Source of the DNA: an uncultured Thiotrichales bacterium
GTDB taxonomy: Bacteria > Pseudomonadota > Gammaproteobacteria > UBA4575
NCBI GenBank assembly: GCA_964614915.1
Contig: CAZTNC010000011.1
Location: 280,705 to 344,704, forward strand
DNA length: 64,000 nucleotides
Direction of reading: 5' to 3'
A program made the position numbers and the translations under genes. Positions 14,577 to 46,440 of the stretch are shown piece by piece (positions within the stretch are counted from its first letter, which is position 1; every line of letters starts with the position of its first letter). Below the pieces are notes generated by a model. The model saw only the letters and a program-made list of their open reading frames with translations. It did not search any database and had not been told where the DNA came from.

Positions 14577-14584
14577 GAGCCGAA

Positions 14585-27460: not shown

Positions 27461-27647
27461 TTGGCGCAGGAAGTCAAGGTAATCACAGGCGGTTCCATTA
27501 TACACGAGGGGGGTTCGCATACGGAGATGTCCGGCTTGCAGGCACCGGTCCAGCCTCCGAACATGGCCTGGGGTTTACTACCGGGGCCAGCTCGGACTAC
27601 CATAACTTTCGGCTTCTCACAATTCATAAAAACAGAGAATTCATTTC

Positions 27648-30600
27648 GTGAAACCGGATAGCCCGCACGATGCCAAGTTATCTCCCGGTCCCGAGGGAGA
27701 TGTGCGAAAACCAGAGAGCTTGATCTCCAGCCCGCCGATCGCCATCGTGGGCATGGCCTGCCGGTTCCCGGGTGCACCGGACCTTGCAGCTTTCTGGCAC
27801 TTGCTGGACAGCGGAGGAAATGCCATCACGCAGGCAGAGCCCGGTACTGGGGTCGATCGCGTGGATGCATTGTTCCCGGACGATGCGGTGCGCAGCCCGG
27901 CCTGCCAGTTCGGGGGATTCGTGGAAGACATCGACCGCTTCGATGCCGCGTTCTTCCGGATTTCACCCGTCGAAGCCCAGATGCTTGACCCGCAACAGCG
28001 AATGATGCTGGAGACGAGCTGGCATGCACTTGAGGATGCGGGCATCGATCCGGAGTGCCTAAAGGGTAGCCGCACAGGGGTCTATACCGGTATCAGCACG
28101 GACGAGTACCGCATGATGGTGCTGAATTCCGCACGGCCTGAAGAGGCCGCCGGATGCCTCTATGCCCTGAGCGGTACCAACATGAACGGCGCTGCGGGGC
28201 GGGTCTCTTTCATACTGGGATTGATGGGTCCCGCAAAAGCGGTGGATGCTGCCTGCGCTTCTTCGCTGGTTTCCGTACACGATGCAGTCGCTGATCTTCA
28301 GCAAGGCAAGGCAGACCTGGCAATCGCCGGCGGGGTGCATACCATGCTCAACGGCCGTGTATACGAATTGCGGGCGGACTCGATGATGCTGTCCCCGGAT
28401 GGGCAATGCAAGGCTTTTGATGCCTCTGCCAATGGCTACGTGCGAGGCGAAGGGTGCGGTGTGGTAATCCTCAAGCGCCTGAGCGAGGCACAGGCGGCCG
28501 GGGACCGAATCTGGGCCGTGATCCGGGGGGCTGCGGTCAATCATGGCGGTGCCAGTTCGGGGCTCACGGTGCCGAATACGCCGGCACTTGAGGCCGTAAT
28601 CGAGGAGGCCCTGACACACGCGGGAATGTCCGCATCGATGGTGGACTACCTTGAGGCGCACGGCACCGGAACTACGGTGGGCGACCCGATCGAACTCAAT
28701 GCTGCTGCCGTGGCTTACGGCCGAGGGCGCAGGGACGATCGCCCACTCCTGGTAGGCTCGGTCAAGACCAACATCGGTCATCTGGAAGCGGCGGCCGGCG
28801 TGGCCGGGCTGATCAAGGCGGCCCTGGTGGTGCATCGCGGCATGATCCCAATGCACCTGCATTTCCACAACCCGAATCCGAGTCTCGACTGGGATCGCCT
28901 GCCGCTTCGCGTGATTACAGACAATCTGCTGTGGCCGTATGCCACCGATGAGCCGCGCCGCGCCGGTGTGAACTCCTTCGGGATCTCCGGGACGAATGCT
29001 CATATCATTCTTGAACAGTACGGCGCAGGGCCCGCGGTGTCCGAGTCCACACTGCAACCCGTAGGCCTGGCTCAGGCAGTTGCCACAACCTTGCCGCAGA
29101 CTGTAGCGGAGTGTCGCGATCAGGCATTTGTGAAACGTACTTCGCGCCTGTTGCCGCTCTCGGCCAAGAGCGAGCCAGCGCTGCATGCGTTGGCAGAGCG
29201 TTACCTGTCCTGGCTCGATCAACAGCAAGCGGCTCAGCCGGATCCAGCCACGGAGGATGAGCAGCTGGCCAATCTTGCCTGGACGGCTTCGATCGGGCGC
29301 AGCCACTTCGATTACCGCGCAGGCCTGGCATTCACCGACGTGGCTTCCTTGCAGCAGCAGTTGAAGAAGTTGGTAAAGGCAGATGGACTGACCCATACAC
29401 GCTCACTGAAGGTCGCATTTGCCTACACCGGACAAGGCAGTCAGTGGCCGGGTATGGGTCAAGTACTTTATGAGCGTGAACCAGTGGTGCGGGCTGTACT
29501 GGACCGTTGCGAGAGCGTGTTTTTCGAGCAGCGGGGCGCCTTGCTTCTGGATGTGATGTTCAATCGCCCGGGTGCTCGTGGTGCCCTGGAAGATACCGCT
29601 TGGGAGCAGCCAGCGCTGTATGCACTCGAATGTGCGTTGACTGCTCTTTGGGCCAGCCTCGGGGTTCGCCCTGCCATTGTGTTAGGACATAGTGTCGGCG
29701 AGCTTGCAGCCGCGCAGGCCGCAGGCGTGTTCAGCCTTGAAGACGGAATGCGGTTTGCCGAAGCCAGGGGCCGACTGCTCTCCCGAACCGCAGAAGGCGC
29801 TATGGCCGCAGTGTTTGCGCCGGCACAACAGGTGGTTTCCGCCGTCGCCAAGCGAAACAAGGAAACGGATGGGGACGCGCTTTGCATCTCAGGCTATAAC
29901 GGCCTTCATCAGGTGATCAGCGGTCCGATTCCGGAAGTGCAATGCCTTCTTGAGCGTTTCGATTCTGAAGGTATTCGCACCCGGCGGTTGAACACGGCCC
30001 GAGCCTTTCACAGTGCCCTGGTGGAGCCGGTTCTCGATGACTTGGAGGCCTCCCTGGAGGGTGTGGCATTCGAGTCGCCTTCTGTGGAAGTGATCAGCAA
30101 TCTGACCGGTGTGGCTGTGGGACCTGGCGAAACACTGGATGCGAAATACTGGAGACGTCATGCGCGCGAGGCAGTCGCCTTTGCCGAGGGGGTTTGCACC
30201 TTGTCCGGCCTTGACGTGGACCTGGTAGTGGAAATCGGCCCGGGCAAAATCCTGGCACCGATGCTGGCCTCGGCTTGGCCGGACTCGACGCGGACTGCAC
30301 CCCCTGGCATATCGAGTCTTCAGGCGCCCTCGGCCTCAGCACCAGAACCAAATTCAGATGCAGGATTTCTACAGGCGGTCGCGAAGGTCTACGAGGCCGG
30401 ACTGCCTGTTCATTTTGAGGGACTTTTTGCAGGCGAGTTACGTGCCAGGATTTCACTGCCTCAATATCCGTTCCAGCGAGAGCGCCACTGGATGGAAACT
30501 CCGCGCAAGCACCGGCGTGAAAAGGGTCACCCGCTACTCGGGGTCCGGCACGAATCGGCCACTGGCGGGATTACATACGAGACACAGTTGTACGCCACCG

Positions 30601-33600
30601 ATCCGGCCTGGCTGGGGGATCACCGGGTATTCGAGCGCATCGTGGTCCCCGGTGCGGTCTATGGCGCGATGGCGGCTCTGGCCTCCCTGGCCGAGGGTGC
30701 TCCACATGCCACGGTGGGGGATATGCAGCTGCACAATGCGATGATCGTCCCGGAAGCGGCCCCTGACGATGGCATGGCAGAACCGGGTGCGACCCTGCAG
30801 CTCATGCTGGGCGAGGAGGAAGTCGGTGCACGGCCTATGCGTGTGTTCAGCAAGGGCGATGAAGGAGACTGGATCCTGCATGCGGAAGGACGCATTGGAA
30901 CAGGTGCCTCCTCCCCCCAGGCACCGGAGCGAATCGACCTTCAGGCACTGGCAGAAAACCTGTCCGTGATGGAGGTGTCGGACTATTACCGTGCCCGGGC
31001 TGAAACAGGAATTGGACTGGGTCCGTCGTTTCGAACGCTGACCAAGATTTGGGCTGCACCCGGTGAAGCCCTGGCAGAGGTGTCGGTCCCGGAAGACCTG
31101 GGCGGTACCGGACTGGGCGTGCATCCACTGGTACTTGACGGCTGCTTCCAGGTCGTGGGTGCGGCACGGGGCCTTGGCGGGATGCAGGGCTCAACGACCT
31201 ACCTGCCCTTCGGCTGGGAGCAGCTATGGCTGGCCGGTCCGCTTCCCCAAAAGGTGTTCTGCCATGTGCGCATGAATGCTGCGGCTGTGCAATCCGAGGA
31301 AGCCCCTGCCGAGGCACCCGAGGTGCAAAGTGGTGAGGTGTACATTTACGATGCCAACGGGATGCTGATCGGTGGCTTGAGCGGCTACACCGTGAAGCGG
31401 GCCGAGCGCTCGGCGATGCTTTCAGCATTGGAAGGTACTGATGATTTGCTGTACGAGGTGGTATGGCGTGAATGCGCTCTTGCCTCTGGACTGGAAGCTG
31501 CGGACTTCTTCCCCGAACCGGCTTCGGTCAAGGATAGTACCCGACTGTTCTCCGAGTATCTGAAGGATGCCGGGGTAGGGCCCGAAGACCGGGACGCCCT
31601 GCTTTCGGAACTCGAGCACTGGTCATGGGCCTATGCGCTCGCGAACCTGGACCGGTTGGGATGGCAGCGTGTGGCCGGCGAAACCGTCGACCCGGATGCA
31701 TTGCGCCAGCAACTGAACGTGAGCGCAGATCACAGGCGTTTGTTTCGCCGAATGCTCGAGATGCTGACCCGGTGCGAGGTGCTGGAAGAGATCGATGACG
31801 GCTTTCTCGTGTTGTCGGGGTCCAAGGATGCGTGGCCAAAGGGGCTTGTCGAGGATCCTGAGGCCCATGCGGAAACAATGGCCGAGCGGTTTCCCCATGG
31901 GCTGACCGAGGTCGGATTATTTCGGCGCTCCGGAAGCGCATTGGCTGATGTTCTGCGGGGTCAGGCCGATCCCCTGACACTGTTGTTCAGCAGTGGCGAG
32001 CCTACTGCAGCCGACCTGTATCTTCGAGCTCCGGTAGCCCGTGCAGCCAACCGAATGCTTGGTGAAGCGGTCCGTACGCTTGTCGGTGCGCTTCCTGCCG
32101 GGCGGCGTCTGCGGGTGATCGAGGTGGGTGCGGGTACGGGTTCGGCGACGGCATCCGTGTTGCCGGAACTGCCGCAGGGACAGTTCGAATACACCTATAC
32201 GGATATCTCGGCGGGCTTTTTCGCAGAAGCGGAGGCACGCTTTGGGGACGGCGGTGGCCACATTGATTATCGACCGCTGGATATCGAGAAAGACCCTCAG
32301 GATCAGGGCTTCGAGGTGCACGGCTATGATTTGCTGATCGCATCCAACGTACTTCATGCGACACGCCTGTTGCCAGAGACGCTGGCCCACTGCCTGAAGC
32401 TCCTCGCCCCTTCCGGACAGTTGATCGCACTTGAGAACCTTCGCGGCCAGGGTTGGATGGACCTGACTTTCGGACAACTGGATGGCTGGTGGCGCTTCGC
32501 CGATGACTACCGCCCACACCATGCGCTGGCCAACCCTGCGGTGTGGCGTCAGGCACTTGGTGATGCCGGTTTTGATGCGATCGAGATTCTGGGCGTGGAC
32601 GAGTCGGAGACAGCCAAACTTCCGGATCGGGGTGTAATTGTGGCCCGTGGCCCCGCCCGGGTGCATGAAGCTCCGGGCATGTGGGTTCTGATGGCGGATG
32701 AGGGTGGGACCGCTACACATCTAGCGCACGAGCTTGCAGATCGCAATCAGACGGTCGTGCTGGCAGGTCCCGGTTTTGACAAGGCTGCCGATTTCAAGGT
32801 ATCCGGCGCCGGTGTGCATGAGGTGTACGTGGATGCGATACGGCGCGAGACTTGGCAGCAACTTGTGGAGCACCTGCCAGGCGACCTGCCCTTCAGCGGG
32901 GTGGTGCATTTTGCAGGACTCGACGGGCATGGCATGCAGGCGAGTACCGCAGAAATTGCAGAGGATGTCGAGCGCACGGGGGCGAGCGCACTGGCCCTGG
33001 TGCAGGGCGTGGCTGATTCGGTCCGTGAGCCTGCCAAGGGCATCTGGTTAATCACGCGGGGTGCACAGATTCTGGAGCGAGAACGCGGCGGGGAACTTGC
33101 CGGTGCGATCCTGTGGGGTTTCGGCAAGGCCGTGGACCGCGAGGCGGCGCACCTGCAACCGCGGATGATCGACCTTGACCCGCAACCCGAAGCCTCACCA
33201 CCCGATCTGGCCAATGAACTGCTGTATCCTGATGTCGAAAACCACATTGCCTATCGCTTGGGTCGACGGCAGGTCGCGCGCCTGGTCCGCTTTGCGGATG
33301 GGCCAGCGCGCCTGGCACTGCCGAAGACGCCGGACTGGGTGCTGGCACCGGATCCAGGCGGCACATTCGATCGCCCCTGCGTGCAGTCCCTGGCTGCGCG
33401 CCCGCTGGAACCCAGGGAAGTGCGTGTCGAGGTCGATGCTGCGGGTCTGAACTTCTGGGATGTGTTCCGCTCCCTCGGGTTTATTGAGGAGGGATTGCTT
33501 GGCCGGGAGATGTGCGGACGTGTCATCGAGACCGGCTCCGAAGTGAGCAGCGCGATTACCGGTAAGCGCGTGATTGGACTTGGCTTCGGCGCCTTTGGTC

Positions 33601-36600
33601 CGCAGATGATCACGCGAGAGGAACTCGTCTCTGCTGCCCCTTCGGGGTATTCGGTCACCGAACTGGCGACGGTGCCGAGCGCGTATGTCTCCGCGGCGCT
33701 CTCCTATGAACTTTCCGGACTGCAGGCCGGCGAGCGCGTATTGATTCATGCCGGTGCCGGCGGGGTGGGCCTTGCGGCCATCCAGCTTGCCCAGGCCGCA
33801 GGGGCCGAAGTATTCGCCACAGCAAGCATTCCCAAACAGGTATACCTCAGATCACTGGGAGTGAAGCATCTGTTTGACAGTCGCACGACCGCCTTCGGGG
33901 AACAGATCCTCGAAGTGACCGGTGGAGCCGGCGTGGACGTGGTGCTGAATAGCCTGACGAGCGAGGGATTTATTGATGCCAGCCTGTCCTGCCTGCGCCA
34001 GGGAGGCCGGTTCGTGGAACTGGCCCGCAGGGACATCCTGAGTCCAGAGGAGATGGCAGCGGTGCGCCCGGATGTGGGTTATGACATTCTGGAACTCGAT
34101 GTCTTGAAAAAGACGGATCCGGCGTGGGTCGGGCGGGTGTTGGACGATGTTACGAGACAGCTCGCTTCAGGCGAAATCGGGCCGATCGTGCACAGCCGGT
34201 GGCCTCTGGCTGAAGCGGGAGCTGCCTTGCGGTTCATGCGGTCTGCCCGTCATCTGGGAAAGATTGTTGTCACGGCACCGCCGCTGGCGACAGGCAGGCT
34301 GCGCCAGGACGCCACCTACCTTGTAACCGGTGGGCTGGGCGGTATCGGCCTTGCCGTGGCTGACTGGCTGGTCGGGCAGGGTGCCGGGACCCTTGTGCTG
34401 AATGGACGCCGCAGCCCGGATGCCGAGGCCGAGGCCGCGATCCAGGAGCTTCGCGAACGCGGGGCATCGATCCACGTAGAGATTGCGGATGTGACGGATG
34501 CCGCGGCAATGGACCGGATGATGTCGCGCATCGACCAGGAATTGCCGCCCCTGGCCGGTGTGATTCACAGTGTCGGGGTGCTGTCGGATGGTGCTCTGAC
34601 AAACCAGAACTGGGAGCGATTCGAACAGGTGCTGTGGCCAAAGATCCTGGGCGCCTGGCACCTGCACCGCTCAACGCTGGATCGTGACCTCGACTTCTTC
34701 ATTCTTTTTTCAAGCCGTGTTGGTGTGATGGGGAATCCGGGTCAGGCGAACCACGCTGCAGCCAATGCCTTTCTGGACCAGTTGGCCGGTCATCGCCGCG
34801 CTCTTGGGCTTGCCGGGCAGGCGATTGCCTGGGGTGCGTGGTCCGAGATCGGCGAAGCTGCGGAGCAAAAAGACCGCATCGAACGCCAGCGCTCTGCACT
34901 GGGCGGGCGCTGGTTCACTCCGCAGCAAGGTCTCAAGGCCCTTGAACGGCTGGTACGCCAGGATGTTACGACCTCCGTGGTGATGTCGATGGACTGGTCC
35001 GTGTTTGAAAAGGCTGTTGGTGCGCGACCTCCGTTTCTTGAGGAGATGCTTGTGACGGACGACGAGACCGAAGCCGGTGCTGTGGCCTCGTCGGCCGATG
35101 TGATGGCCCGACTGCAGCAAACCCCGGCCTCTGAACGGGGCCGCCTGCTAGAGTCGTATCTGCAGGGAGAGGTGCAGGCGGTGCTGCGCTTGCCTTCGGC
35201 TCCGGAGCCCGCCGTCGGATTTTTCGACCTCGGTATGGATTCCCTGATGGCCGTAGAACTGCGAAACCGTCTGAACCGGGCCTTCTCGGATGAGTACACT
35301 GCCTCCAACACGGTGGTGTTCGACTACCCGGACATCATCTCGCTGGCCCGCCACCTGTCCGAGGAACTGGGTGAAGTCGAGGAGGCCCCCGCACCCCAGC
35401 CCCAGCCAGCACCGGTGTCTGCATCCGAAGATGCAACGACCGAGGGCGGCATTGCGATTATCGGCATGGCCTGCCGGTTCCCGGGTGCCCGCAATCTTTC
35501 CGAATTCTGGCAGATCCTCGATGAGGGCCGCGAAACCGTGAGTGACCGGCGCGAGGACACTGGTTCGTGGGACGGGGTGTTGGGAGATCCTGCCAAGCCC
35601 GATGACGGCTACCAGCGTGGCGGGTTCATCGAGGGGATCGATCGCTTCGATGCTCGTTTTTTCGGCATTCGGCCGATCGAAGCCCACGCCATGGATCCGC
35701 AGCAGCGGATGCTGCTCGAGACGAGCTGGCACGCCCTTGAGGATGCCGGTATTGATCCTGAGCGTTTGCGAGGCAGTCCCACCGGAGTTTATGCCGGCAT
35801 TGCCTCCAGCGAATACCGGGACTTGATGGTGGACAGTGGCGGCCCCAGCTATCTAGGCACAGCAGGAAGTATGGCGGTCGGGCGTGTCTCGTTTTGCCTG
35901 GGCCTGGAAGGACCGACCATGCCGGTCATGCTCAACTGCGCTTCATCTCTGGTTGCCATACATCATGCCGTAGTGAGCTTGCGCCAGGGCGAGGCGGACT
36001 TGGCGTTGGCTGGCGGAGTCAACGCGATCCTTTCGAACGGGCTGACCCGTGAACTCGCTGAACTCGGGATGCTGTCGCGTGATGGACGATGCAAGACGTT
36101 CAATGCCTCGGCGGACGGGTTTGTACGCAGTGAAGGTTGCGGAATGGTTGTCCTCAAGCGCCTGAGCGAGGCGCAGGCGGATGGCGATCGAATCTGGGGC
36201 GTGATCCGTGGCTCGGCTATCAACCACAGTGGGGCGAGTGCAGGGCCCACTGTGCCCACGGGTCCAACGAAGGAACGGGTCATCGAGGAGGCGCTTGCCG
36301 GGACAGGTGTCTCGCCACACGAAGTGGACTATCTTGAGGCGCACGGAGGTGGCTCGGAGTTGGGTGATTCAATTGAGGTCAATGCTTCTGCAAGGGTCTA
36401 TGGGCGAGGGCGCGAGGCAGAGGATCCCCTGTTGATTGGTTCGGTGAAAACGAACCTCGGACACCTGGAATCCGCTGCCGGCATTGCAGCACTCATCAAG
36501 ACGGTGTTGGCAATGGATCGGCGCAGGATCCCTCAACACCTGCATTTTCATGACCCGAACCCGCACATGGACTGGGAGCAGTTACCGGTGAAGGTGGTCT

Positions 36601-37289
36601 CGGAGGCCATGGACTGGCCTCGGCATGAGGGCCGGCCTGCGCGTGCAGGGGTCAGTGCATTTGGAATCTCGGGAACCAATGCCCATGTGGTGGTCGAAGA
36701 GTATCCGGCGCCGGAGGATACTCCGTACCCAGACCGTACACGATCTTTCCCTGCAGGGAATGCTCAACAGGTCACATCGCCCCTGTCGGACTCACCCCAG
36801 GAGACTCCCTCTGAAATACCTGCACCGGACGAGCGAAAGATCCGCCTGCTGCCGCTTTCTGGAAAGTCTCTAGTCGTTCTTGGGGAGCTGGCCGAAGCGT
36901 ATCTTGCCTGGCTTGATGCGCACTCGGAGGAGCTTTCGGGTGATGACAGTGCATCCGGCCCACTGCTTTCGGATATGGCATGGACGGCCAGCACGGGACG
37001 TGCGCACTTCGATCATCGGGCGGGTATCCTGTTCAGTGATGCGGCCTCGCTCCGGGCTCAACTTCAGTCACTTGCCAGGGGCACTGGCAAAGAGGTGGCT
37101 GCAGCAGCGAACGCAGACTCCCGCAATGGGAAAACGGATGAAGTACATGCCTTCATGCTGGAAGTGGCAGAAGCCTACGAGGCAGGGCGTGCGGTTTCGC
37201 TTGCAGGTCTTTTTGAGGGCGAGATGCGCCGGCGAATTTCCGTACCAGACTATCCATTTGAGCGGAAGAGGTTTTGGGTCAAGGCCTGA
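27648..37289 (+). CDS. Type I highly reducing polyketide synthase, 3213 aa: KS-AT-DH-cMT-ER-KR-ACP-KS(-AT-less linker)
   Basis: KS1 active Cys203 (DAACASS), HGTGT, NIGH. AT GHSVGE (Ser682) and AFHS. DH HxxxGxxxxP at His992. Class I methyltransferase VIEVGAGTG near aa 1490. ER (medium-chain dehydrogenase-like GAGGVGLAAIQLA). KR YLVTGGLGGIG. ACP GMDSL (Ser2532). Second KS Cys2764 (NCASS), EAHGGGS, NLGH. Terminates after an AT-less linker. GTG start. Confidence 0.9.
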   Translation: MKPDSPHDAKLSPGPEGDVRKPESLISSPPIAIVGMACRFPGAPDLAAFWHLLDSGGNAITQAEPGTGVDRVDALFPDDAVRSPACQFGGFVEDIDRFDAAFFRISPVEAQMLDPQQRMMLETSWHALEDAGIDPECLKGSRTGVYTGISTDEYRMMVLNSARPEEAAGCLYALSGTNMNGAAGRVSFILGLMGPAKAVDAACASSLVSVHDAVADLQQGKADLAIAGGVHTMLNGRVYELRADSMMLSPDGQCKAFDASANGYVRGEGCGVVILKRLSEAQAAGDRIWAVIRGAAVNHGGASSGLTVPNTPALEAVIEEALTHAGMSASMVDYLEAHGTGTTVGDPIELNAAAVAYGRGRRDDRPLLVGSVKTNIGHLEAAAGVAGLIKAALVVHRGMIPMHLHFHNPNPSLDWDRLPLRVITDNLLWPYATDEPRRAGVNSFGISGTNAHIILEQYGAGPAVSESTLQPVGLAQAVATTLPQTVAECRDQAFVKRTSRLLPLSAKSEPALHALAERYLSWLDQQQAAQPDPATEDEQLANLAWTASIGRSHFDYRAGLAFTDVASLQQQLKKLVKADGLTHTRSLKVAFAYTGQGSQWPGMGQVLYEREPVVRAVLDRCESVFFEQRGALLLDVMFNRPGARGALEDTAWEQPALYALECALTALWASLGVRPAIVLGHSVGELAAAQAAGVFSLEDGMRFAEARGRLLSRTAEGAMAAVFAPAQQVVSAVAKRNKETDGDALCISGYNGLHQVISGPIPEVQCLLERFDSEGIRTRRLNTARAFHSALVEPVLDDLEASLEGVAFESPSVEVISNLTGVAVGPGETLDAKYWRRHAREAVAFAEGVCTLSGLDVDLVVEIGPGKILAPMLASAWPDSTRTAPPGISSLQAPSASAPEPNSDAGFLQAVAKVYEAGLPVHFEGLFAGELRARISLPQYPFQRERHWMETPRKHRREKGHPLLGVRHESATGGITYETQLYATDPAWLGDHRVFERIVVPGAVYGAMAALASLAEGAPHATVGDMQLHNAMIVPEAAPDDGMAEPGATLQLMLGEEEVGARPMRVFSKGDEGDWILHAEGRIGTGASSPQAPERIDLQALAENLSVMEVSDYYRARAETGIGLGPSFRTLTKIWAAPGEALAEVSVPEDLGGTGLGVHPLVLDGCFQVVGAARGLGGMQGSTTYLPFGWEQLWLAGPLPQKVFCHVRMNAAAVQSEEAPAEAPEVQSGEVYIYDANGMLIGGLSGYTVKRAERSAMLSALEGTDDLLYEVVWRECALASGLEAADFFPEPASVKDSTRLFSEYLKDAGVGPEDRDALLSELEHWSWAYALANLDRLGWQRVAGETVDPDALRQQLNVSADHRRLFRRMLEMLTRCEVLEEIDDGFLVLSGSKDAWPKGLVEDPEAHAETMAERFPHGLTEVGLFRRSGSALADVLRGQADPLTLLFSSGEPTAADLYLRAPVARAANRMLGEAVRTLVGALPAGRRLRVIEVGAGTGSATASVLPELPQGQFEYTYTDISAGFFAEAEARFGDGGGHIDYRPLDIEKDPQDQGFEVHGYDLLIASNVLHATRLLPETLAHCLKLLAPSGQLIALENLRGQGWMDLTFGQLDGWWRFADDYRPHHALANPAVWRQALGDAGFDAIEILGVDESETAKLPDRGVIVARGPARVHEAPGMWVLMADEGGTATHLAHELADRNQTVVLAGPGFDKAADFKVSGAGVHEVYVDAIRRETWQQLVEHLPGDLPFSGVVHFAGLDGHGMQASTAEIAEDVERTGASALALVQGVADSVREPAKGIWLITRGAQILERERGGELAGAILWGFGKAVDREAAHLQPRMIDLDPQPEASPPDLANELLYPDVENHIAYRLGRRQVARLVRFADGPARLALPKTPDWVLAPDPGGTFDRPCVQSLAARPLEPREVRVEVDAAGLNFWDVFRSLGFIEEGLLGREMCGRVIETGSEVSSAITGKRVIGLGFGAFGPQMITREELVSAAPSGYSVTELATVPSAYVSAALSYELSGLQAGERVLIHAGAGGVGLAAIQLAQAAGAEVFATASIPKQVYLRSLGVKHLFDSRTTAFGEQILEVTGGAGVDVVLNSLTSEGFIDASLSCLRQGGRFVELARRDILSPEEMAAVRPDVGYDILELDVLKKTDPAWVGRVLDDVTRQLASGEIGPIVHSRWPLAEAGAALRFMRSARHLGKIVVTAPPLATGRLRQDATYLVTGGLGGIGLAVADWLVGQGAGTLVLNGRRSPDAEAEAAIQELRERGASIHVEIADVTDAAAMDRMMSRIDQELPPLAGVIHSVGVLSDGALTNQNWERFEQVLWPKILGAWHLHRSTLDRDLDFFILFSSRVGVMGNPGQANHAAANAFLDQLAGHRRALGLAGQAIAWGAWSEIGEAAEQKDRIERQRSALGGRWFTPQQGLKALERLVRQDVTTSVVMSMDWSVFEKAVGARPPFLEEMLVTDDETEAGAVASSADVMARLQQTPASERGRLLESYLQGEVQAVLRLPSAPEPAVGFFDLGMDSLMAVELRNRLNRAFSDEYTASNTVVFDYPDIISLARHLSEELGEVEEAPAPQPQPAPVSASEDATTEGGIAIIGMACRFPGARNLSEFWQILDEGRETVSDRREDTGSWDGVLGDPAKPDDGYQRGGFIEGIDRFDARFFGIRPIEAHAMDPQQRMLLETSWHALEDAGIDPERLRGSPTGVYAGIASSEYRDLMVDSGGPSYLGTAGSMAVGRVSFCLGLEGPTMPVMLNCASSLVAIHHAVVSLRQGEADLALAGGVNAILSNGLTRELAELGMLSRDGRCKTFNASADGFVRSEGCGMVVLKRLSEAQADGDRIWGVIRGSAINHSGASAGPTVPTGPTKERVIEEALAGTGVSPHEVDYLEAHGGGSELGDSIEVNASARVYGRGREAEDPLLIGSVKTNLGHLESAAGIAALIKTVLAMDRRRIPQHLHFHDPNPHMDWEQLPVKVVSEAMDWPRHEGRPARAGVSAFGISGTNAHVVVEEYPAPEDTPYPDRTRSFPAGNAQQVTSPLSDSPQETPSEIPAPDERKIRLLPLSGKSLVVLGELAEAYLAWLDAHSEELSGDDSASGPLLSDMAWTASTGRAHFDHRAGILFSDAASLRAQLQSLARGTGKEVAAAANADSRNGKTDEVHAFMLEVAEAYEAGRAVSLAGLFEGEMRRRISVPDYPFERKRFWVKA
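27738..29012 (+). other. PKS ketosynthase domain 1 (KS1)
   Basis: IAIVGMACRFPGA start. Cys203 at nt 28254-28256. HGTGT. NIGH. Confidence 0.8.
29415..30317 (+). other. PKS acyltransferase domain (malonyl-type inferred)
   Basis: GHSVGE at nt 29688-29705. AFHS motif (His-Ala-Phe-His-Ser pattern typical of malonyl-specific ATs). Confidence 0.7.
30525..31397 (+). other. PKS dehydratase domain
   Basis: HPLLGVRH...LGDHRVFERIVVPGAVY hot-dog motif. His992 at nt 30621. Confidence 0.7.
32055..32627 (+). other. PKS C-methyltransferase domain
   Basis: SAM motif I VIEVGAGTGSATA (nt 32115-32150). Motif II region LLIASNVLHAT. Catalytic competence not assessed. Confidence 0.6.
33390..34277 (+). other. PKS enoylreductase domain
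   Basis: MDR/quinone-oxidoreductase-like LIHAGAGGVGLAAIQLAQAAGAEVFATAS. Confidence 0.7.
34305..34847 (+). other. PKS ketoreductase domain
   Basis: YLVTGGLGGIGLAVADWL Rossmann motif and an SDR catalytic region. Confidence 0.7.
35145..35387 (+). other. PKS acyl carrier protein domain
   Basis: LGMDSLMAVELRNRL. Ser2532 at nt 35241-35243. Confidence 0.75.
35448..36737 (+). other. PKS ketosynthase domain 2 (terminal KS2, paralogous to KS1)
   Basis: IAIIGMACRFPGA. Cys2764 at nt 35937-35939. EAHGGGS variant of HGTGT. NLGH. About 70% nucleotide identity to the KS1 region. Confidence 0.75.
36738..37289 (+). other. C-terminal KS-AT linker remnant fused directly to a post-AT linker motif (no AT domain)
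   Basis: LLPLSGKS...MAWTASTGRAHFDHRAGILF parallels the KS1-AT linker. The terminal ISVPDYPFERKRFW parallels ISLPQYPFQRERHW, which follows the AT. Confidence 0.6.
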
Positions 37290-37342
37290 CGCACTTCGAG
37301 ATCACGGGCCTGTTTTGACAGTTGTGGGTGCCACCGCCGCCT

Positions 37343-38239
37343 TCAGGCATCGGGCAACAGTTGCTGTTCCTGGAATTCTCGCACCGCAGATACACAGTCC
37401 ACCGGCTTTTCCAGTTGAAGAAGATGTGTGGTCTCAGGGATGAAATCATAATCGACAGTCAGGACATCGCTGAGATCGAAGGTTGGCAGATAGGCATACG
37501 GCAAGGTCGGGTCCGCCCCGATGACCTTCGTCGGACACGGGAGCGTCTCAAAGTCCACCAGCGGGGAAAAGCTTCGGACATAATCGGTGATTTGGGCTTC
37601 GTATTCGCGTGGGCAACGCAGCTCATACCCCAGCCCGTCGGGAACCTCGCGAAGCGTGGTCTTGGCCATGAGTTCCCGGACCCCGGGAACCACATGGGTG
37701 AAGGTCGGGATGTAGCTCAGGAAATCAGAAAATTCTTCCTCCGTCTGGAATCGGTATCCGCGTCGGCGCGTCAGCGATGCAGCGTGTTCGGCAGCCACGT
37801 CAAATTCGGTCTGGCTGGCACCAGGCTTGCATACGGGCGGGTCAAATAGAATCTGTGCAGAGCAGCTGTTGTCCTGCGGCGCCGAAAGCAGCGAGATCAG
37901 CGCTGAGACGGAGTGTAATACCCCGATCTTGGGTTTGTTGCCATAGTGGCGGTCGATGGATTCCAGTATCAGGGCATAATCCTGTATTAGTACGGGAACG
38001 TTGTGGTCGCGGCGCTCGCCCACGGAATTCCAGCCATGGTTTCTGAGGTCATAGAGGATTAGTTCGTAGTCCTCGGCAAGCAGCGACCAGAACGGGTAAT
38101 ACAGGTCAATGGCAAGACCGTTGCCGTGACAAAGCACAAGCCGAGGCCCTGACGGATTGCCGTGCTGTCGCAAGTGCGTGACTGTATTTTGATCCAGTCG
38201 GACTTCACGCACTGAGATTGGTTCAGGAATTTCCCACAT
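37343..38239 (-). CDS. Alpha/beta-hydrolase fold protein (thioesterase/lipase-like), convergent with the PKS
   Basis: HG oxyanion motif (LVLCHGNG). Nucleophile elbow GVLHSVSA. C-terminal His region. 298 aa. Confidence 0.6.
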   Translation of the reverse strand: MWEIPEPISVREVRLDQNTVTHLRQHGNPSGPRLVLCHGNGLAIDLYYPFWSLLAEDYELILYDLRNHGWNSVGERRDHNVPVLIQDYALILESIDRHYGNKPKIGVLHSVSALISLLSAPQDNSCSAQILFDPPVCKPGASQTEFDVAAEHAASLTRRRGYRFQTEEEFSDFLSYIPTFTHVVPGVRELMAKTTLREVPDGLGYELRCPREYEAQITDYVRSFSPLVDFETLPCPTKVIGADPTLPYAYLPTFDLSDVLTVDYDFIPETTHLLQLEKPVDCVSAVREFQEQQLLPDA

Positions 38240-38323
38240 GGTCCTTATGAGGTAAATCGTATTCTCGTTTTATCAGGTTCAAAAGGTTGGACCGAATCGC
38301 CTGGTTCATTCTCCAGGCCGGCA

Positions 38324-39061
38324 TCACCCCGGGTTAAGCTCGTGTGCCAGGGCTGCGGCAAAATTAGGGTCGTCCAGGGATTCAAGCCACCACCGGACTG
38401 TGGGCAGTTGAGGAAAGCAAAATTCGCCTGCACTCATCCCCTGGCGCAGGGTTTTCGGAATTTCGATTCCTGACATGTCCAGCGAGAATCCCGTACCCAG
38501 GGCCTTGAGTAATGCTTCTTTCATCGTCCACAGGCGGAAAAACAAGTGGATCTTTTGCGGGCCGCGGGCCGCGGCCAGGTCCGCGCGTTCATTCGGAGTA
38601 AATACCGACTGAATATCTCCATCCAGGTTCTGTTGCATGTTCCGTTCTTCCACGTCCACCCCGATACGCCCATGCAGGGCAAGTGCCACCAGCCCGTGCT
38701 GGTGGCTGTGGCTGACGTTGAAGCCGATACCTTTCGATTCTCCATCCACCAGGGCATGGGGTTTTCCGTATTTTGATGTCCCGAAGGCGAGTTGTTCGTT
38801 GCTGCAGTCGAGATGTTTGCAGAGAATCGCACGCAGAGCGGCACGGCACAAGCTGAATTCATACCGGGCACGGGCATGGCGAAACCGGCGCCAGCGTGCC
38901 TGTTCATTGTGATCCAACCACTCCAGCGCCTCGGCCTCACGAGTATCATGAGGCCGCAGGTCCACATGAAAAATTGTGGTATCCCGGGTTCTCCTGTACG
39001 GGCGCCACCAGTCCTTTGTCGCGGTAGCCGATTCCTTGTGCCTGCTCACCTTCACGGGCAC
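38324..39061 (-). CDS. 4'-phosphopantetheinyl transferase, Sfp/EntD type
   Basis: KYGKP, GFNVSHS, GVDVE and WTMKEALLKALG motifs. Confidence 0.8.
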   Translation of the reverse strand: MPVKVSRHKESATATKDWWRPYRRTRDTTIFHVDLRPHDTREAEALEWLDHNEQARWRRFRHARARYEFSLCRAALRAILCKHLDCSNEQLAFGTSKYGKPHALVDGESKGIGFNVSHSHQHGLVALALHGRIGVDVEERNMQQNLDGDIQSVFTPNERADLAAARGPQKIHLFFRLWTMKEALLKALGTGFSLDMSGIEIPKTLRQGMSAGEFCFPQLPTVRWWLESLDDPNFAAALAHELNPG

Positions 39062-39201
39062 AGGGTCAAGTCACGTTGTACAGTGCCCGGGTTGTCCATG
39101 ACCATCGCAGTGTCTGCGCTTGTCCCGGCCTGGGAACTGGGGCACACGTGCACCCCGATGTCCGGATGCAGTTCTGCCTACATCCCTGAACCGGAAAAGG
39201 T

Positions 39202-39432
39202 TTACCCGGAGTTCGAATCCAGATAGGAAGCCAGTTCCCGCAGAGACTGGAACTGGGAGAAATCTTCAGGAGGAATTGTCAACCCGAATTCCTGGCCGAC
39301 CTTCTTGATGAAGGCGACGGCATCCACTGAGGACACGCCAGAGTCACCAAACCCGGTGTCCATATCCGGTTCCCTGCCAATATCCAGATTTTCATTTGCT
39401 AGTGCCATGAGGCGGTCTTCTGTTGAGGACAT
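39202..39432 (-). CDS. Discrete acyl carrier protein
   Basis: 76 aa, acidic. GFGDSGVSSVDAV phosphopantetheine-attachment-like motif. Heads an ACP-PPTase-hydrolase operon. Confidence 0.65.
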   Translation of the reverse strand: MSSTEDRLMALANENLDIGREPDMDTGFGDSGVSSVDAVAFIKKVGQEFGLTIPPEDFSQFQSLRELASYLDSNSG

Positions 39433-39927
39433 GATGAAATTCTCCTGATTGTTTTAGTTGGTTTTTGGTGTAGACAGACCGGTATTTTAGGTGCAGGCAC
39501 GTTTTCAGACAAGGGCAGGTGTAAGTCGCCGATGAACCTGGGCAGGCATGCTACGGAATTGATCCCGGCCTGACCGCTGGCCGCATACGCTTCTCGAGGC
39601 ATACGTTCGAAATCCCTGCATTTTTTGAGCGCATTTTCGAACGGATTCAGCCGATCCGCGTCTATACCTATGTAGGCTGCTGTTGCTTCCTGACAGCACC
39701 TGTCCGCGTCATGACTTGTCCGGGGCTTTGACTTACAATGACAGAACAGGAAACTGCCTGGGTCGGGGAGCGCAGTCCATCTGAATTGATTTGTCAAGAT
39801 TGGCGGGAGTCCGTATGTCTGTACCGGTGAATAAGGAAGGAAGCCATGCGGCTTCGCCCGACCGTCCGGCCCTGGGTCCCGCCGCAAGCGAGATGATGTC
39901 AGGCGATCGCTTTCCCCTACAGGGCAC

Positions 39928-42372
39928 ATGGCCTATCTCCTGAAGCTTTTGCGCCTTGCGCTGGGGGCTTTTCTTGCCATCATCGTCGCAATACTGGCCA
40001 CCTACATATACTTGGCACCTTCCCTGCCCGGGGTGGCCGTGCTCAGGGATGTGGAACTGCAGGTGCCGCTCAAGGTGTACAGCCGGGACGGCAAGCTGAT
40101 TGCCGTGTATGGAGAACAAAGGCGTGAACCCCTGGGGGTGGATGAGATCCCGGAATTGCTGGTCCAGGCATTCCTTGCTGCAGAAGATGACCGCTTTTAC
40201 GAACACTTAGGCGTCGATTATCAGGGTCTGGCCCGTGCTGCACTTTATGTATTGCTGACCGGAGAAAAACGGCAGGGCGGCAGCACCGTCACGATGCAGT
40301 TGGCCCGGAACTTCTTTCTGGACAATGAGCGCACCTACCGACGCAAGCTCAAGGAAATTTTCCTGGCCCTGAGAATTGAGCACGAGTTCAACAAGAACGA
40401 AATCCTCGAACTGTACCTGAACAAGATCTACTTGGGGAACCGGGCCTACGGCGTGGGTGCGGCGGCCGAGGTCTATTACGGGCGCAGCGTGCATGATCTC
40501 AATCTAGCCCAGATTGCCATGATTGCAGGCCTGCCCAAGGCTCCTTCGAGGTTTAACCCGATTGTCAATCCCGAGCGTGCCGTCATCCGCCGCAATTATG
40601 TGCTTGGCAGAATGCACAAGCTTGAATTCATTGACGATGACACCTACCGCAAAATGCTGGATGAGCCGGTAAGCGCATCGGTCCACTACCCCCGGGTTGA
40701 GATGAATGCGCCGTACATTGGAGAGATGGCGCGCGCGCAGATGTTCGGGGAATACGGCTCCGAGGCCTATACCAAGGGTTACCGGGTGTACACGACGATC
40801 AACAGCAAACTCCAGCGCCAAGCCCAACTGGCCCTTAGAAAAGGGTTGCATGCCTACGACCGGCGTCATGGCTGGCGGGGTGCAAAATCCCATTTGGAAC
40901 TGGAGTTAACAGGCGATGACATGGACCAGATTGCGTTTGAAAAACTGGATGAGGTGATTCTGGGCATGGATCTGATCGGAGGGTTGATGCCGGCCGTGGT
41001 GACCCGGGTGGAGCCCTTGGAAATCGAGGTGTATCTGGGTGAGCAGCAGTTTGCCTTGGTGTCAATCGACCAGGCCAAGTGGGCTAGGCCTTACATCAGC
41101 GAAAATACCATGGGGGAGGTGCCGGAAGACTTCACCGGACTGCTTGCACCGGGGGATGTGATCCGGATTACCCGGGCAGATACCGGCAAATGGGCCCTCA
41201 GCCAGATTCCTGAGGCGGCCGGTGCCTTCGTGGCGATCGACCCGCAAAACGGCAGCGTACTGGCCCTGGTCGGCGGGTACGATTACCTGCACAGCAAGTT
41301 CAATCGCGTCACGCAGGCGAAACGCCAGCCCGGCTCAAGTTTCAAGCCGTTTATCTATTCGGCCGCGCTCGAGTCAGGCTTCACGCCAGCCAGCATTGTC
41401 AACGATGCGCCGGTGGTACATGACGGCAGCGGCCTGGAAAGTGCCTGGCGCCCCAAAAATTACAGCGGCAAGTTTTTCGGACCGACCCGCCTTCGCGAGG
41501 CCTTGGTGAAGTCCCGCAACATGGTTTCGATCCGCGTGCTGCGAAGCGTGGGTCACCGCTATACCGAGCAGCACATCACCAACTTCGGTTTTGGCCCGGA
41601 GCAACTGCCCCAGGGCTTGTCCCTGGCATTGGGTTCCGGTGTGGCGACGCCACTGGAGATGGCCCGCGGCTATGCAGTGTTTGCCAATGGCGGTCACTAC
41701 GTGGAACCGTTCGTGATTGAAAGGATAGAAGATGTCAGTGGTGAGGTCCTGTTTCGCTCCAGTCCACTCATGGTATGCGAGGCAGACTGTCTGGACCTAC
41801 AACAACAGTTGTACCAAAGCGTAGAGGAGGTCATCGGGGAGGATGGGGCCCCCGAACTGGGCATACGGGTCGCTGAGCGCGTGCTGTCCAAAGAGAACGC
41901 CTATCAGATGGTGAGCATGATGCATGATGTCATACAAAGTGGCACAGGCAGGCGTGCGCGCCAGTTGGGACGCAGTGATCTTGCTGGAAAAACAGGTACG
42001 ACGAACGAGCAGCGGGATGCATGGTTCTGCGGCTTCAACGGTGACATTGTTGCAATCTCCTGGGTGGGGTTTGATCAGCACAAGCCGCTCGGACGCAAGG
42101 AAGTCGGCAGTGTCACAGCGTTACCAATATGGATCGAGTTCATGCGTGCTGCCCTTCAGGGTAAACCGGAAAACAAGCTGAAGCGACCGGAGACAATCGT
42201 CAGTGTGCGTATCGATCCTGCCACTGGACAGCGGGTGGACCCGGGCAATGAACAGGGCATTGAGGAGACCTTCCGTATGGGGTATGTTCCGGCTGAAGGC
42301 TCCGGATCGGGTACACCGCCGGCATATCCGAGAAATGACCAGGGGATGGGAACTCCGGAACAGCTTTTTTAA
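39928..42372 (+). CDS. mrcA: Penicillin-binding protein 1A (bifunctional transglycosylase/transpeptidase)
   Basis: N-terminal TM helix. GT51 motifs (EDDRFYEH, RQGGSTVTMQLARN). Transpeptidase SxxK region (SSFKPF), SRN and KTGTT. Confidence 0.9.
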   Translation: MAYLLKLLRLALGAFLAIIVAILATYIYLAPSLPGVAVLRDVELQVPLKVYSRDGKLIAVYGEQRREPLGVDEIPELLVQAFLAAEDDRFYEHLGVDYQGLARAALYVLLTGEKRQGGSTVTMQLARNFFLDNERTYRRKLKEIFLALRIEHEFNKNEILELYLNKIYLGNRAYGVGAAAEVYYGRSVHDLNLAQIAMIAGLPKAPSRFNPIVNPERAVIRRNYVLGRMHKLEFIDDDTYRKMLDEPVSASVHYPRVEMNAPYIGEMARAQMFGEYGSEAYTKGYRVYTTINSKLQRQAQLALRKGLHAYDRRHGWRGAKSHLELELTGDDMDQIAFEKLDEVILGMDLIGGLMPAVVTRVEPLEIEVYLGEQQFALVSIDQAKWARPYISENTMGEVPEDFTGLLAPGDVIRITRADTGKWALSQIPEAAGAFVAIDPQNGSVLALVGGYDYLHSKFNRVTQAKRQPGSSFKPFIYSAALESGFTPASIVNDAPVVHDGSGLESAWRPKNYSGKFFGPTRLREALVKSRNMVSIRVLRSVGHRYTEQHITNFGFGPEQLPQGLSLALGSGVATPLEMARGYAVFANGGHYVEPFVIERIEDVSGEVLFRSSPLMVCEADCLDLQQQLYQSVEEVIGEDGAPELGIRVAERVLSKENAYQMVSMMHDVIQSGTGRRARQLGRSDLAGKTGTTNEQRDAWFCGFNGDIVAISWVGFDQHKPLGRKEVGSVTALPIWIEFMRAALQGKPENKLKRPETIVSVRIDPATGQRVDPGNEQGIEETFRMGYVPAEGSGSGTPPAYPRNDQGMGTPEQLF

Positions 42373-42378
42373 AGAATC

Positions 42379-42990
42379 GTGGCTGTAAGAAAACAGGACC
42401 GGCTTCGGGAGAAGCTTGCCCAAGAGGCTGCCAGAATCATTGTCAGCGAAGGGGTGCACGACTACCAGAAAGCCAAGTGCAAGGCTCGCGAGCGCCTGCA
42501 TGCACTGCAGGGCGTGGCGCTGCCCAGCAATGTCGAGATCGAGTCCGCCATCCGTTCATTTACACGGACTTTTTTGCCGGACCATGAGGGGATCCTTCGA
42601 AACTTGCGATGTACGGCACTGACCGTGATGAACTGGCTGACTCCGTATCACCCCTACCTGACAGGTCCCGTGCTGGAAGGTACCGCAGGTGCAAAAACGC
42701 CGATCAGCCTGCACGTCTCCTGTGACTGCCCAGAAGAAGTTCTGGCGGTGCTGCAGCAACGCGGCCTGGTAGTGCGGCTGGCAGACCGTCATTTCAAGCA
42801 AAACCGCCATTACACCTGCCTGCCCGTTCTGGTGTTCACGTATCGCGAGCATGAAATTGATGTCACGATTTTCAGCTTGCGCCAGCAGCACCAGCCTCCG
42901 AAAAGCAAGACGCATCACCGCAGTGCTCAAAGAATGAACGGAAAGGCGCTGGCCAGCCTGCTGGGGCAAGCCCGCAGCAAGGCTCTGTAA
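42379..42990 (+). CDS. Conserved hypothetical protein co-transcribed with mrcA
   Basis: 203-aa ORF 7 bp after the mrcA stop. No family recognised. Confidence 0.4.
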   Translation: MAVRKQDRLREKLAQEAARIIVSEGVHDYQKAKCKARERLHALQGVALPSNVEIESAIRSFTRTFLPDHEGILRNLRCTALTVMNWLTPYHPYLTGPVLEGTAGAKTPISLHVSCDCPEEVLAVLQQRGLVVRLADRHFKQNRHYTCLPVLVFTYREHEIDVTIFSLRQQHQPPKSKTHHRSAQRMNGKALASLLGQARSKAL

Positions 42991-43081
42991 GAACGCCGCG
43001 GTGCTTTTTACTGCCTGCAGGGGCTCTGCATCGGCATGCAGCTTCGATCCGACCCCGGCGCATCTGCCGGGATTGTAACGG

Positions 43082-46430: not shown

Positions 46431-46440
46431 CTGAGGTACC

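What the first reader, a model, noticed from the sequence alone, without database searches (positions are those of the whole stretch)
35448..37289. Terminal second KS domain followed by a KS-AT linker spliced directly onto a post-AT motif (AT domain excised)
After KS2 the protein repeats the KS1-AT interdomain linker (LLPLSGKS...MAWTASTGRAHFDHRAG versus LLPLSAKS...LAWTASIGRSHFDYRAG). It then jumps straight to the motif that normally follows the AT (ISVPDYPFERKRFW versus ISLPQYPFQRERHW) and ends. This looks like a duplicated module whose AT and downstream domains were deleted. KS2 keeps Cys-His-His (NCASS, EAHGGGS, NLGH) and so may be catalytically active. It resembles AT-less (trans-AT-style) modules and could act with AT1 in trans and the discrete ACP, or serve as a transfer or off-loading KS.
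Basis: seen in the sequence. Interest (0 to 1): 0.6.

Follow-up and report, generated by a model that had tools for sequence, protein, structure and literature searches.

The report
Sponge-type PKS terminal ketosynthase, AT lost
The second ketosynthase at the end of this giant enzyme is a conserved feature of the abundant "Sup"-type polyketide synthases of sponge-associated bacteria. In this lineage an already dead acyltransferase remnant behind it has been deleted completely, so the variant is tidy but fairly ordinary.

Summary
The 3213-aa PKS (27648-37289, +) reads KS-AT-DH-cMT-ER-KR-ACP-KS2. KS2 is followed by a full KS-AT linker domain, a bridge of about 22 aa and the post-AT linker, then a stop. 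No AT lies between them.

It is neither an assembly error nor a one-off. All 78 related loci, mostly MAGs whose names point to sponge microbiomes, from at least 12 phyla, share the architecture. All stop 0-17 codons after the YPFxRxxxW motif. Most have a free-standing ACP, an alpha/beta hydrolase and a PPTase next door. This fits the published Sup ("sponge symbiont ubiquitous") PKS family.

In 60 loci a 215-284-aa AT2 relic sits behind KS2. It is dead: the catalytic Ser is almost always lost, and the small subdomain with the catalytic His is deleted. Three loci have shorter relics. Fifteen, including the window, have none. These losses arose several times independently.

KS2 keeps Cys-His-His in 63 of 63 full-length members and is about as conserved as KS1. 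Its model superposes over its full length on trans-AT "KS plus flanking subdomain" structures.

KS2 most likely extends the methyl-branched chain onto the free-standing ACP, which AT1 or FabD loads. This step is inferred, not shown.

The parts
27648..37289 (+). Sup-type PKS gene, 3213 aa: KS1-LD-AT1-postAT-DH-cMT-ER-KR-ACP-KS2-LD2-bridge-postAT2-stop
   Evidence: ORF list and translation; Pfam; same architecture in 78 related loci
27738..29012 (+). KS1 (aa 31-455), Cys203/His338/His378 in DAACASS, EAHGTGT, NIGH
29400..30362 (+). AT1 (aa 585-905), the only intact acyltransferase: GHSVG Ser682, RAFHS (malonyl-type AFH motif)
30366..30497 (+). Post-AT linker 1 (aa 907-950), ends ISLPQYPFQRERHW
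30510..34847 (+). Reducing and methylating loop: DH (aa 955-1260), C-methyltransferase (1484-1646), ER (1922-2208), KR (2222-2400)
35157..35357 (+). In-line ACP (aa 2504-2570), GMDSL Ser2531
35451..36737 (+). KS2 (aa 2602-3030), Cys2764/His2899/His2939; triad kept in 63/63 family members
36831..37088 (+). KS-AT linker domain 2 (LD2, aa 3062-3147); alpha/beta flanking subdomain, pLDDT 82-95
37089..37154 (+). Bridge of about 22 aa (aa 3148-3169) in the place of the AT; poorly conserved; low model confidence
37155..37289 (+). Post-AT linker 2 (aa 3170-3213, AYEAG...ISVPDYPFERKRFW) and the stop codon, 3 codons after the motif
37343..38239 (-). Alpha/beta hydrolase (298 aa), conserved neighbour of Sup-type PKS genes; candidate release enzyme
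38324..39061 (-). Sfp-type 4'-phosphopantetheinyl transferase (245 aa)
39202..39432 (-). Free-standing ACP (76 aa). It is AcpP-like and shows no alignment to the in-line ACP. Candidate carrier partner of KS2.

Best explanation
The gene is a member of the Sup-type ("sponge symbiont ubiquitous") PKS family.

The family plan is one fully reducing, C-methylating module (KS1-AT1-DH-cMT-ER-KR-ACP) followed by a terminal KS2-AT2 didomain that has no carrier of its own. A free-standing ACP, a PPTase and an alpha/beta hydrolase are encoded alongside.

Across the family AT2 is a catalytically dead relic. In the window's lineage, and independently in several others, the relic has been deleted entirely. 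What remains is KS2 plus the KS-AT linker domain plus the post-AT linker, a compact unit with the fold of a trans-AT-type KS with flanking subdomain.

Shown: the anatomy, its conservation, the dead AT2, the repeated loss, the intact and conserved KS2 triad, and the fold.

Inferred: KS2 is an active condensing enzyme. It takes the 2-methyl-branched saturated acyl chain from the in-line ACP. It extends the chain once with malonate carried on the free-standing ACP, which AT1 acting in trans, or the cell's FabD, must load. The product is then released by the hydrolase or passed to type II fatty acid synthesis, which would place the methyl branch mid-chain.
For: Anatomy.

Family conservation: 78 loci have the identical domain order. 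The ORF ends 0-17 codons after YPFxRxxxW in all of them.

Accessory genes within the limited flanks fetched: ACP in 56, hydrolase in 49 and PPTase in 39 of 81 sequences, the 80 loci fetched by then plus the window. The ACP gene lies 65-320 nt downstream of the PKS stop on the same strand in 34 of 78 loci, as in a split KS-AT|ACP module.

Dead AT2: the nucleophile motif reads GHGxG, GRGxG or similar, with Ser kept in only 2-3 of 51. About 75 aa holding the small subdomain and the AFH histidine are deleted. The relic is less conserved than AT1 (0.485 against 0.61 mean pairwise identity).

KS2 under selection: Cys, His and His are kept in 63 of 63. Mean pairwise identity is 0.65 against 0.69 for KS1, and post-AT2 0.69 against post-AT1 0.70.

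Repeated loss: the AT-less forms are never monophyletic in 100 NJ bootstraps of the whole protein or of any of five regions tested, and Fitch parsimony needs 4-8 changes. The window's module 1 is sister to the relic-bearing L026 at 84-94% bootstrap. Bridges differ in length (11-43 aa) and sequence, and intermediates of 169-187 aa exist.

Fold: AlphaFold2 pLDDT 88, pTM 0.92. Foldseek aligns the model over its full length to PksJ KS2 (4NA1) and MgsE KS3 (4QYR) at TMq 0.80. Sequence identity is highest to the cis-AT didomains CurL (43%) and DEBS module 5 (41%).

Published context: Sup PKSs are small monomodular PKSs, ubiquitous in high-microbial-abundance sponges, independent of symbiont taxonomy and proposed to make mid-chain-branched fatty acids (PMC4245539, PMC3908369, PMC9426513).
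Against: No sequence labelled SupA could be retrieved, and the founding paper (Fieseler et al. 2007) is not in the library. Family membership therefore rests on architecture, gene neighbourhood and distribution.

No biochemical data exist for any step.

Nothing shows that the free-standing ACP, rather than the in-line ACP, is the partner of KS2. The free-standing ACP could instead deliver the starter, because the PKS has no loading domain.

The second-His motif is HG(G/A)GS rather than the canonical HGTGT; its effect on decarboxylation is unknown.

The trees are NJ only, and deep nodes are poorly resolved.
Confidence: 0.62

Rival explanations
1. Two ketosynthases share one loop. After the chain moves from the in-line ACP to KS2, the same ACP is reloaded by AT1. 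KS2 then condenses onto it, so the chain passes a second time through the same KR-DH-ER (and possibly MT) domains. KS1 and KS2 would supply different substrate gates for successive rounds. The free-standing ACP would deliver the starter or accept the product.
For: AT2 is dead or absent in the whole family, and no second ACP is fused to KS2. The KS2 triad is intact. The PKS has no loading domain, which leaves a starter-delivery job open for the free-standing ACP. That ACP is AcpP-like and unrelated to the in-line ACP.
Against: In 34 of 78 loci the ACP gene directly follows KS2-AT2 on the same strand, the layout of a split module. I know of no precedent for two KS domains sharing one ACP and reducing loop in a bacterial PKS (own knowledge).
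Confidence: 0.18
2. KS2 does not elongate. It acts as a transfer or off-loading ketosynthase, which holds the finished chain and passes it to the free-standing ACP, to the hydrolase or to another acceptor.
For: It is terminal, it lacks its own AT and ACP, and a hydrolase is always nearby.
Against: Non-elongating KS0 domains of trans-AT PKSs typically lack the HGTGT histidine (own knowledge). Here both histidines and the cysteine are kept in 63 of 63 members.
Confidence: 0.12
3. KS2 with its linkers is a decaying, functionless remnant of a former second module, kept only as a structural C-terminal cap or dimer interface.
For: Its neighbour AT2 is clearly decaying and has been lost repeatedly.
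Against: KS2 is nearly as conserved as KS1 (0.65 against 0.69) and keeps every catalytic residue in 63 of 63 members from at least 12 phyla. The truly dead AT2 drops to 0.485 and loses its catalytic Ser and His.
Confidence: 0.05
4. It is a genuine trans-AT PKS module served by a dedicated free-standing acyltransferase.
For: There is no AT behind KS2, and the fold matches trans-AT KS structures over the full length.
Against: No AT gene is found in the window's cluster or outside the PKS genes in the related loci (a FabD-like AT could have been missed by that tblastn). KS2 is closer in sequence to its own KS1 (54%) and to cis-AT KSs (43% to CurL) than to trans-AT KSs (32-36%). Relatives still carry the AT relic in cis.
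Confidence: 0.02
5. The ORF is truncated or mis-joined by an assembly or sequencing error.
For: None found.
Against: A separate Logan assembly contig is identical. Fourteen further loci have the same AT-less junction. All 78 homologues stop at the same place. Only 53 nt separate the stop from the convergent hydrolase gene.
Confidence: 0.01

Closest known systems
Sup (sponge symbiont ubiquitous) PKS cluster, supA-E (Fieseler et al. 2007; described in PMC4245539, PMC3908369, PMC9426513)
   Same: A small PKS with a single fully reducing, C-methylating module. It is hugely abundant and spread across many phyla of sponge-associated bacteria. The papers held describe SupE as a permease, and locus L001 has a permease downstream of its PKS. 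The accompanying ACP, PPTase and hydrolase genes fit the published cluster as I recall it, which I could not check. The proposed product is a mid-chain methyl-branched fatty acid.
   Different: The window belongs to the minority (15 of 78 here) in which the dead AT2 relic behind the terminal KS is missing entirely. Its accessory genes lie convergent to the PKS rather than downstream on the same strand. I could not read the original description, so I do not know whether the terminal KS(-AT) or its AT-less variant has been described.
KS plus flanking subdomain of trans-AT PKSs (e.g. bacillaene PksJ KS2, PDB 4NA1; isomigrastatin MgsE KS3, 4QYR)
   Same: A KS followed by the KS-AT linker fold and a returning linker, with no AT. 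The structures superpose over the full length (TMq 0.80, TMt 0.84).
   Different: Sequence identity is only 32-36%. No dedicated trans-AT gene is present. The unit is derived within a cis-AT family whose relatives still hold the AT relic. It sits at the very C-terminus with no downstream domains.
cis-AT KS-AT didomains (CurL, PDB 4MZ0; DEBS module 5, 2HG4)
   Same: These give the highest sequence identity (43% and 41%). The linker domain and the post-AT YPFxRxxxW motif are the same.
   Different: The AT domain between the linker and the post-AT linker is absent.
Mycocerosic acid synthase and animal FAS-like fully reducing synthases
   Same: The KS-AT-DH-ER-KR-ACP order of module 1 and the probable lipid product. 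MAS and FAS are among the PDB sequence hits.
   Different: The methyl branch would come from an in-line C-methyltransferase and a malonyl-type AT, not from methylmalonyl-CoA. There is an extra terminal KS and no thioesterase domain.

Membership tests
Sup-type PKS (SupA) | Single module with KS, AT, DH, C-MT, ER, KR and ACP in one protein ("small monomodular PKS") | tested here: met
   Pfam domain order; identical order in 78 related loci
Sup-type PKS (SupA) | Cluster partners: free-standing ACP, PPTase and hydrolase (and a permease, SupE) | tested here: met
   ACP, PPTase and hydrolase are adjacent in the window and in most relatives. No permease is present in the window, but one lies next to L001. 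The published cluster composition is recalled from memory except for SupE = permease.
Sup-type PKS (SupA) | Found in sponge-associated bacteria of many phyla, independent of taxonomy | tested here: inconclusive
   Relatives are MAGs from at least 12 phyla, and several names point to sponges (Palauibacter irciniicola, Spongiisociaceae). The window's own sample (run SRR16090826, a Gammaproteobacteria MAG) could not be traced to a host.
Sup-type PKS (SupA) | KS groups with the published Sup KS clade | not testable with these tools
   No protein named SupA and no sponge amplicon names were returned. Fieseler 2007 is not held.
trans-AT PKS | Module lacks an integrated AT while the KS keeps its flanking subdomain | tested here: met
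trans-AT PKS | Dedicated free-standing AT encoded with the PKS | tested here: not met
   No AT gene in the window's cluster. No AT hit outside the PKS genes in 80 loci.
trans-AT PKS | KS belongs to the trans-AT KS lineage | tested here: not met
   54% identity to its own KS1, 43% to cis-AT CurL, 32-36% to trans-AT KSs
Elongating (condensing) KS | Cys-His-His catalytic triad | tested here: met
   Cys2764, His2899 and His2939; conserved in 63 of 63
Elongating (condensing) KS | Demonstrated decarboxylative condensation | not testable with these tools
   Needs enzymology
Functional acyltransferase (AT2 of relatives) | GHSxG serine, catalytic His (xAFH) and the small subdomain | tested here: not met
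   Ser kept in 2-3 of 51. The His motif and about 75 aa of the small subdomain are deleted.

The most novel reading that the evidence does not exclude
Sup synthases may run a programmed two-ketosynthase cycle on a single AT, ACP and reducing loop. KS1 would handle the unbranched starter. KS2 would re-prime the same module with the newly methyl-branched chain, which is why AT2 could die and be deleted repeatedly without harm. Independently of the mechanism, the family preserves every stage of the conversion of a cis-AT KS-AT didomain into a trans-AT-style KS with flanking subdomain: intact AT1, a Ser-less AT2 without its small subdomain, half-size relics, and complete excision in several lineages.
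Probability: 0.2. Interest if true: 0.7.

Novelty: new variant of a known kind. Interest (0 to 1): 0.38.

Why it matters
Sup-type PKSs dominate PKS surveys of sponge microbiomes; they made up over 99% of KS amplicons in one study (PMC4245539). In the papers I could read, their product and mechanism remain unproven.

Three points sharpen the hypotheses that can be tested:
- The terminal KS is conserved and looks catalytically competent.
- Its AT is dead everywhere and dispensable.
- A free-standing AcpP-like carrier often sits where a module-2 ACP would be.

The likely experiments are AT1 loading of two carriers, elongation by KS2, and hand-off to fatty acid synthesis.

The natural series of AT decay also marks boundaries that nature tolerates for cutting an AT out of a KS-AT didomain. 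This is useful for PKS engineering and for ideas on how trans-AT architectures arise.

The finding as given, however, is a regular feature of a known family, not a singular event.

Tried and rejected
- A search with the full 3213-aa protein timed out. The three later searches returned only fragment-length proteins, none named SupA.
- Fieseler et al. 2007 and Siegl et al. 2011 are not held. Seven literature searches and the papers read gave the family's description but not the SupA C-terminal architecture.
- MAFFT aligned the window's bridge (GTGKEVAAAANA) to the AT nucleophile-elbow helix (GxGxGE[IV]AAAQAAG). This could have been a surviving fragment, but local alignment scores do not exceed those of shuffled bridges (mean 21.4 against 20.2, sd 1.1), so I do not claim it.
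- A KS2-only NJ tree suggested a single origin for the AT-less gammaproteobacterial forms. This clade has only 2-3% bootstrap support (WIN+L003 alone 10-15%) and is contradicted by module 1, so I rejected it.
- The promoter and terminator scan of 26.8-40 kb stayed at chance level.
- The look-up of encoding contigs gave inconsistent answers for the same ACP query and missed the hydrolase, although both proteins are in the collection.
- The overlapping ORFs 36880-37443 (+) and 37322-37849 (+) are out-of-frame noise over the PKS end and the hydrolase gene.
Full report
**What is there.**
The window holds one 9.6-kb ORF (27648-37289, +) that encodes 3213 aa. Pfam gives KS, KS-AT linker, AT, DH, C-methyltransferase, ER, KR, ACP, then a second KS with a second set of linker families and no second AT.

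BLASTP of module 1 against the C-terminal 629 aa gives 54% identity over 557 aa, from the start of the KS to the end of the KS-AT linker. A separate HSP aligns the post-AT linker of module 1 (aa 907-950) with the last 44 residues (55%, E=1e-12). The roughly 320 residues of AT1 have no counterpart; about 22 residues (aa 3148-3169) bridge the gap.

**Not an artefact.**
A Logan assembly contig from run SRR16090826 is 100% identical to window 35702-48602, across the KS2 end, the stop codon and the downstream genes. Only 53 nt separate the stop from a convergent hydrolase gene.

**Surroundings.**
On the minus strand downstream lie an alpha/beta hydrolase (37343-38239), an Sfp-type PPTase (38324-39061) and a 76-aa ACP (39202-39432). 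The 12-kb island sits between housekeeping genes: aroK, aroB, dnaG and rpoD on one side, and mrcA, hemE, rpsU and tsaD on the other. Proteins at least 90% identical occur in MAGs labelled Gammaproteobacteria.

**The family.**
A search with the last 224 aa found proteins about 45% identical that cover the query end to end and stop at the same place. Two of them lie in frameshifted copies of the same PKS, next to ACP and hydrolase genes, plus a PPTase gene at one of them.

A scan of one genome per species returned 78 loci. Nearly all are MAGs, from Gamma- and Alphaproteobacteria, Chloroflexota, Acidimicrobiia, Gemmatimonadota (Candidatus Palauibacter irciniicola), Latescibacterota, Nitrospinota, Nitrospirales, Acidobacteriota, Binatia, Dadabacteria, Opitutales and Rhodothermaceae.

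A tblastn domain map shows the same order in all of them: KS-LD-AT-postAT-DH-MT-ER-KR-ACP-KS2-LD2-[x]-postAT2. The ORF ends 0-17 codons (median 3) after the YPFxRxxxW motif in every case. No homologue continues into further domains. A free-standing ACP, a hydrolase and a PPTase are found in most of the fetched flanks.

This matches the published picture of the Sup ("sponge symbiont ubiquitous") PKSs. These are small monomodular PKSs that dominate sponge metagenomes, occur in MAGs of several phyla regardless of taxonomy, and are proposed to make mid-chain-branched fatty acids (PMC4245539, PMC3908369, PMC9426513). I could not read the founding paper or retrieve a sequence named SupA. Membership is therefore inferred from architecture, neighbours and distribution.

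**What [x] is.**
- In 60 loci, 215-284 aa lie between LD2 and the post-AT linker.
- In 3 loci the stretch is 169-187 aa.
- In 15, including the window, it is 11-43 aa.

The long insert is an AT relic. It keeps the N- and C-terminal parts of the large subdomain, but the nucleophile motif reads GHGxG, GRGxG, GQGxG and the like. Serine survives in only 2-3 of 51. About 75 residues holding the small subdomain and the AFH histidine are missing. The relic is also less conserved than AT1 in the same proteins (0.485 against 0.61 mean pairwise identity).

AT2 is therefore dead throughout the family. The window shows the end state of its decay, not the excision of a working domain.

**One loss or many.**
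The AT-less forms are never monophyletic in 100 NJ bootstraps of the whole protein or of any of five regions tested. Fitch parsimony needs 4-8 changes.

In module 1 the window is sister to L026, a gammaproteobacterial MAG whose PKS is 70% identical in DNA over 8.6 kb and still carries a 271-aa relic (84-94% bootstrap). Bridges differ in length and sequence between lineages. I conclude that complete loss happened several times. The caveat is that these are distance trees with weak deep nodes.

The window's KS2 does not share the affinity of its module 1 for L026. This may indicate mosaic evolution; I did not test it further.

**Is KS2 alive.**
Cys2764, His2899 and His2939 are present, and the triad is kept in 63 of 63 full-length members. 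Mean pairwise identities:

| Region | Second copy | First copy |
|---|---|---|
| KS | 0.65 | 0.69 |
| Post-AT linker | 0.69 | 0.70 |
| Linker domain | 0.52 | 0.57 |

This is the pattern of a domain under purifying selection, unlike AT2.

**Structure.**
AlphaFold2, run on an 81-sequence alignment of aa 2590-3213, gives pLDDT 88 and pTM 0.92. The linker domain and post-AT linker are confident (82-95), and the bridge is low (53-78).

Foldseek aligns the model over its full length to trans-AT KS plus flanking subdomain structures (4NA1, 4QYR, 5E5N; TMq 0.80, TMt 0.84-0.91; 32-36% identity). It aligns at higher sequence identity, but without the AT, to the cis-AT didomains CurL (43%) and DEBS module 5 (41%). 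KS2 is thus a trans-AT-style unit by form and a cis-AT KS by descent. It fails two of three membership criteria for trans-AT PKSs: no dedicated AT gene, and a KS lineage that is not trans-AT.

**How it probably works (inferred).**
AT1 is malonyl-type (AFH motif), and module 1 contains a C-methyltransferase and a full reducing set. Module 1 should therefore give a 2-methyl-branched saturated acyl-ACP.

By domain order, KS2 then receives this chain. Its likely carrier partner is the free-standing ACP. In 34 of 78 loci that gene starts 65-320 nt after the PKS stop on the same strand, like the ACP of a split KS-AT|ACP module. Because AT2 is dead or absent, malonyl must come from AT1 acting in trans or from FabD.

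This fits a hand-off toward type II fatty acid chemistry, which would leave the methyl branch mid-chain. Release by the hydrolase is equally possible.

**Rivals.**
- KS2 re-uses the in-line ACP and reducing loop for a second round (about 0.18).
- KS2 is a non-elongating transfer or off-loading KS (about 0.12). This is weakened by the intact histidines.
- KS2 is a dead remnant (about 0.05). This is contradicted by its conservation.
- It is a true trans-AT module (about 0.02).
- It is an assembly error (about 0.01).

**Verdict.**
It misses that this is the standard C-terminus of a known, very abundant family, that the lost AT was already dead, and that the same loss recurred in other lineages.

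I rate it a new variant of a known kind, of moderate interest. The natural series of AT decay and the unresolved role of the conserved terminal KS are the parts worth following.

Noticed in passing
window 9620-20503: A complete-looking bacterial sterol biosynthesis cluster: an amine-oxidase-like flavoprotein, an SdmB-like NAD-dependent 3beta-HSD/epimerase, an SdmA-like Rieske oxygenase, an ERG4/ERG24 reductase, a cytochrome P450, squalene epoxidase and oxidosqualene cyclase fused in one 1146-aa ORF (15988-19428), and a sterol C-24 methyltransferase with the Sterol_MT_C domain (19469-20503, minus strand). Clusters of this kind in sponge symbionts were reported by Brown et al. 2023 (PMC10070321). 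That paper's main text contains no occurrence of the word 'fusion'.
   Followed up: partly
window 26891-42372: The 12-kb PKS island (PKS, hydrolase, PPTase, ACP) lies between aroK/aroB and mrcA. From memory, many gammaproteobacteria carry pilMNOPQ at this position, so the island looks like an insertion or replacement. Not tested.
   Followed up: no
L026:8970-9780, L049, L055 and 57 other loci: The AT2 relic of most Sup-type PKSs keeps the large-subdomain core. It lacks the catalytic Ser (GHGxG and similar), the AFH histidine and about 75 aa of the small subdomain. At 0.485 mean pairwise identity it is still moderately conserved, which hints at a structural role.
   Followed up: yes
L044, L063, L074: Intermediate AT2 relics of 169-187 aa, which look like stages between the roughly 250-aa relic and complete loss.
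   Followed up: partly
window 27738-35357 versus 35451-37088: Module 1 of the window groups with L026 (84-94% bootstrap). KS2-LD2 is nearest to other loci (L049, L051, L040) and not to L026, which suggests mosaic evolution or recombination between sup genes.
   Followed up: partly
L015:944-20616: Two Sup-type PKS genes in tandem in one genome (Candidatus Aldehydirespirator), separated by ACP and hydrolase genes. The first is AT-less.
   Followed up: no
L011:5393-7618; L027:13145-15181: Family variants that seem to lack a domain: no MT hit in L011 (a frameshifted copy) and no ER hit in L027. Either real domain losses or sequence errors.
   Followed up: no
window 59399-60460 (-): A chorismatase of the FkbO/Hyg5 type, a secondary-metabolism-style enzyme sitting among housekeeping genes.
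   Followed up: no
window 27648-27737: The PKS starts about 30 aa before KS1 and has no loading domain (no ACP, AT or acyl-ligase). The starter acyl group must therefore reach KS1 directly, from acyl-CoA or from a free carrier protein.
   Followed up: no
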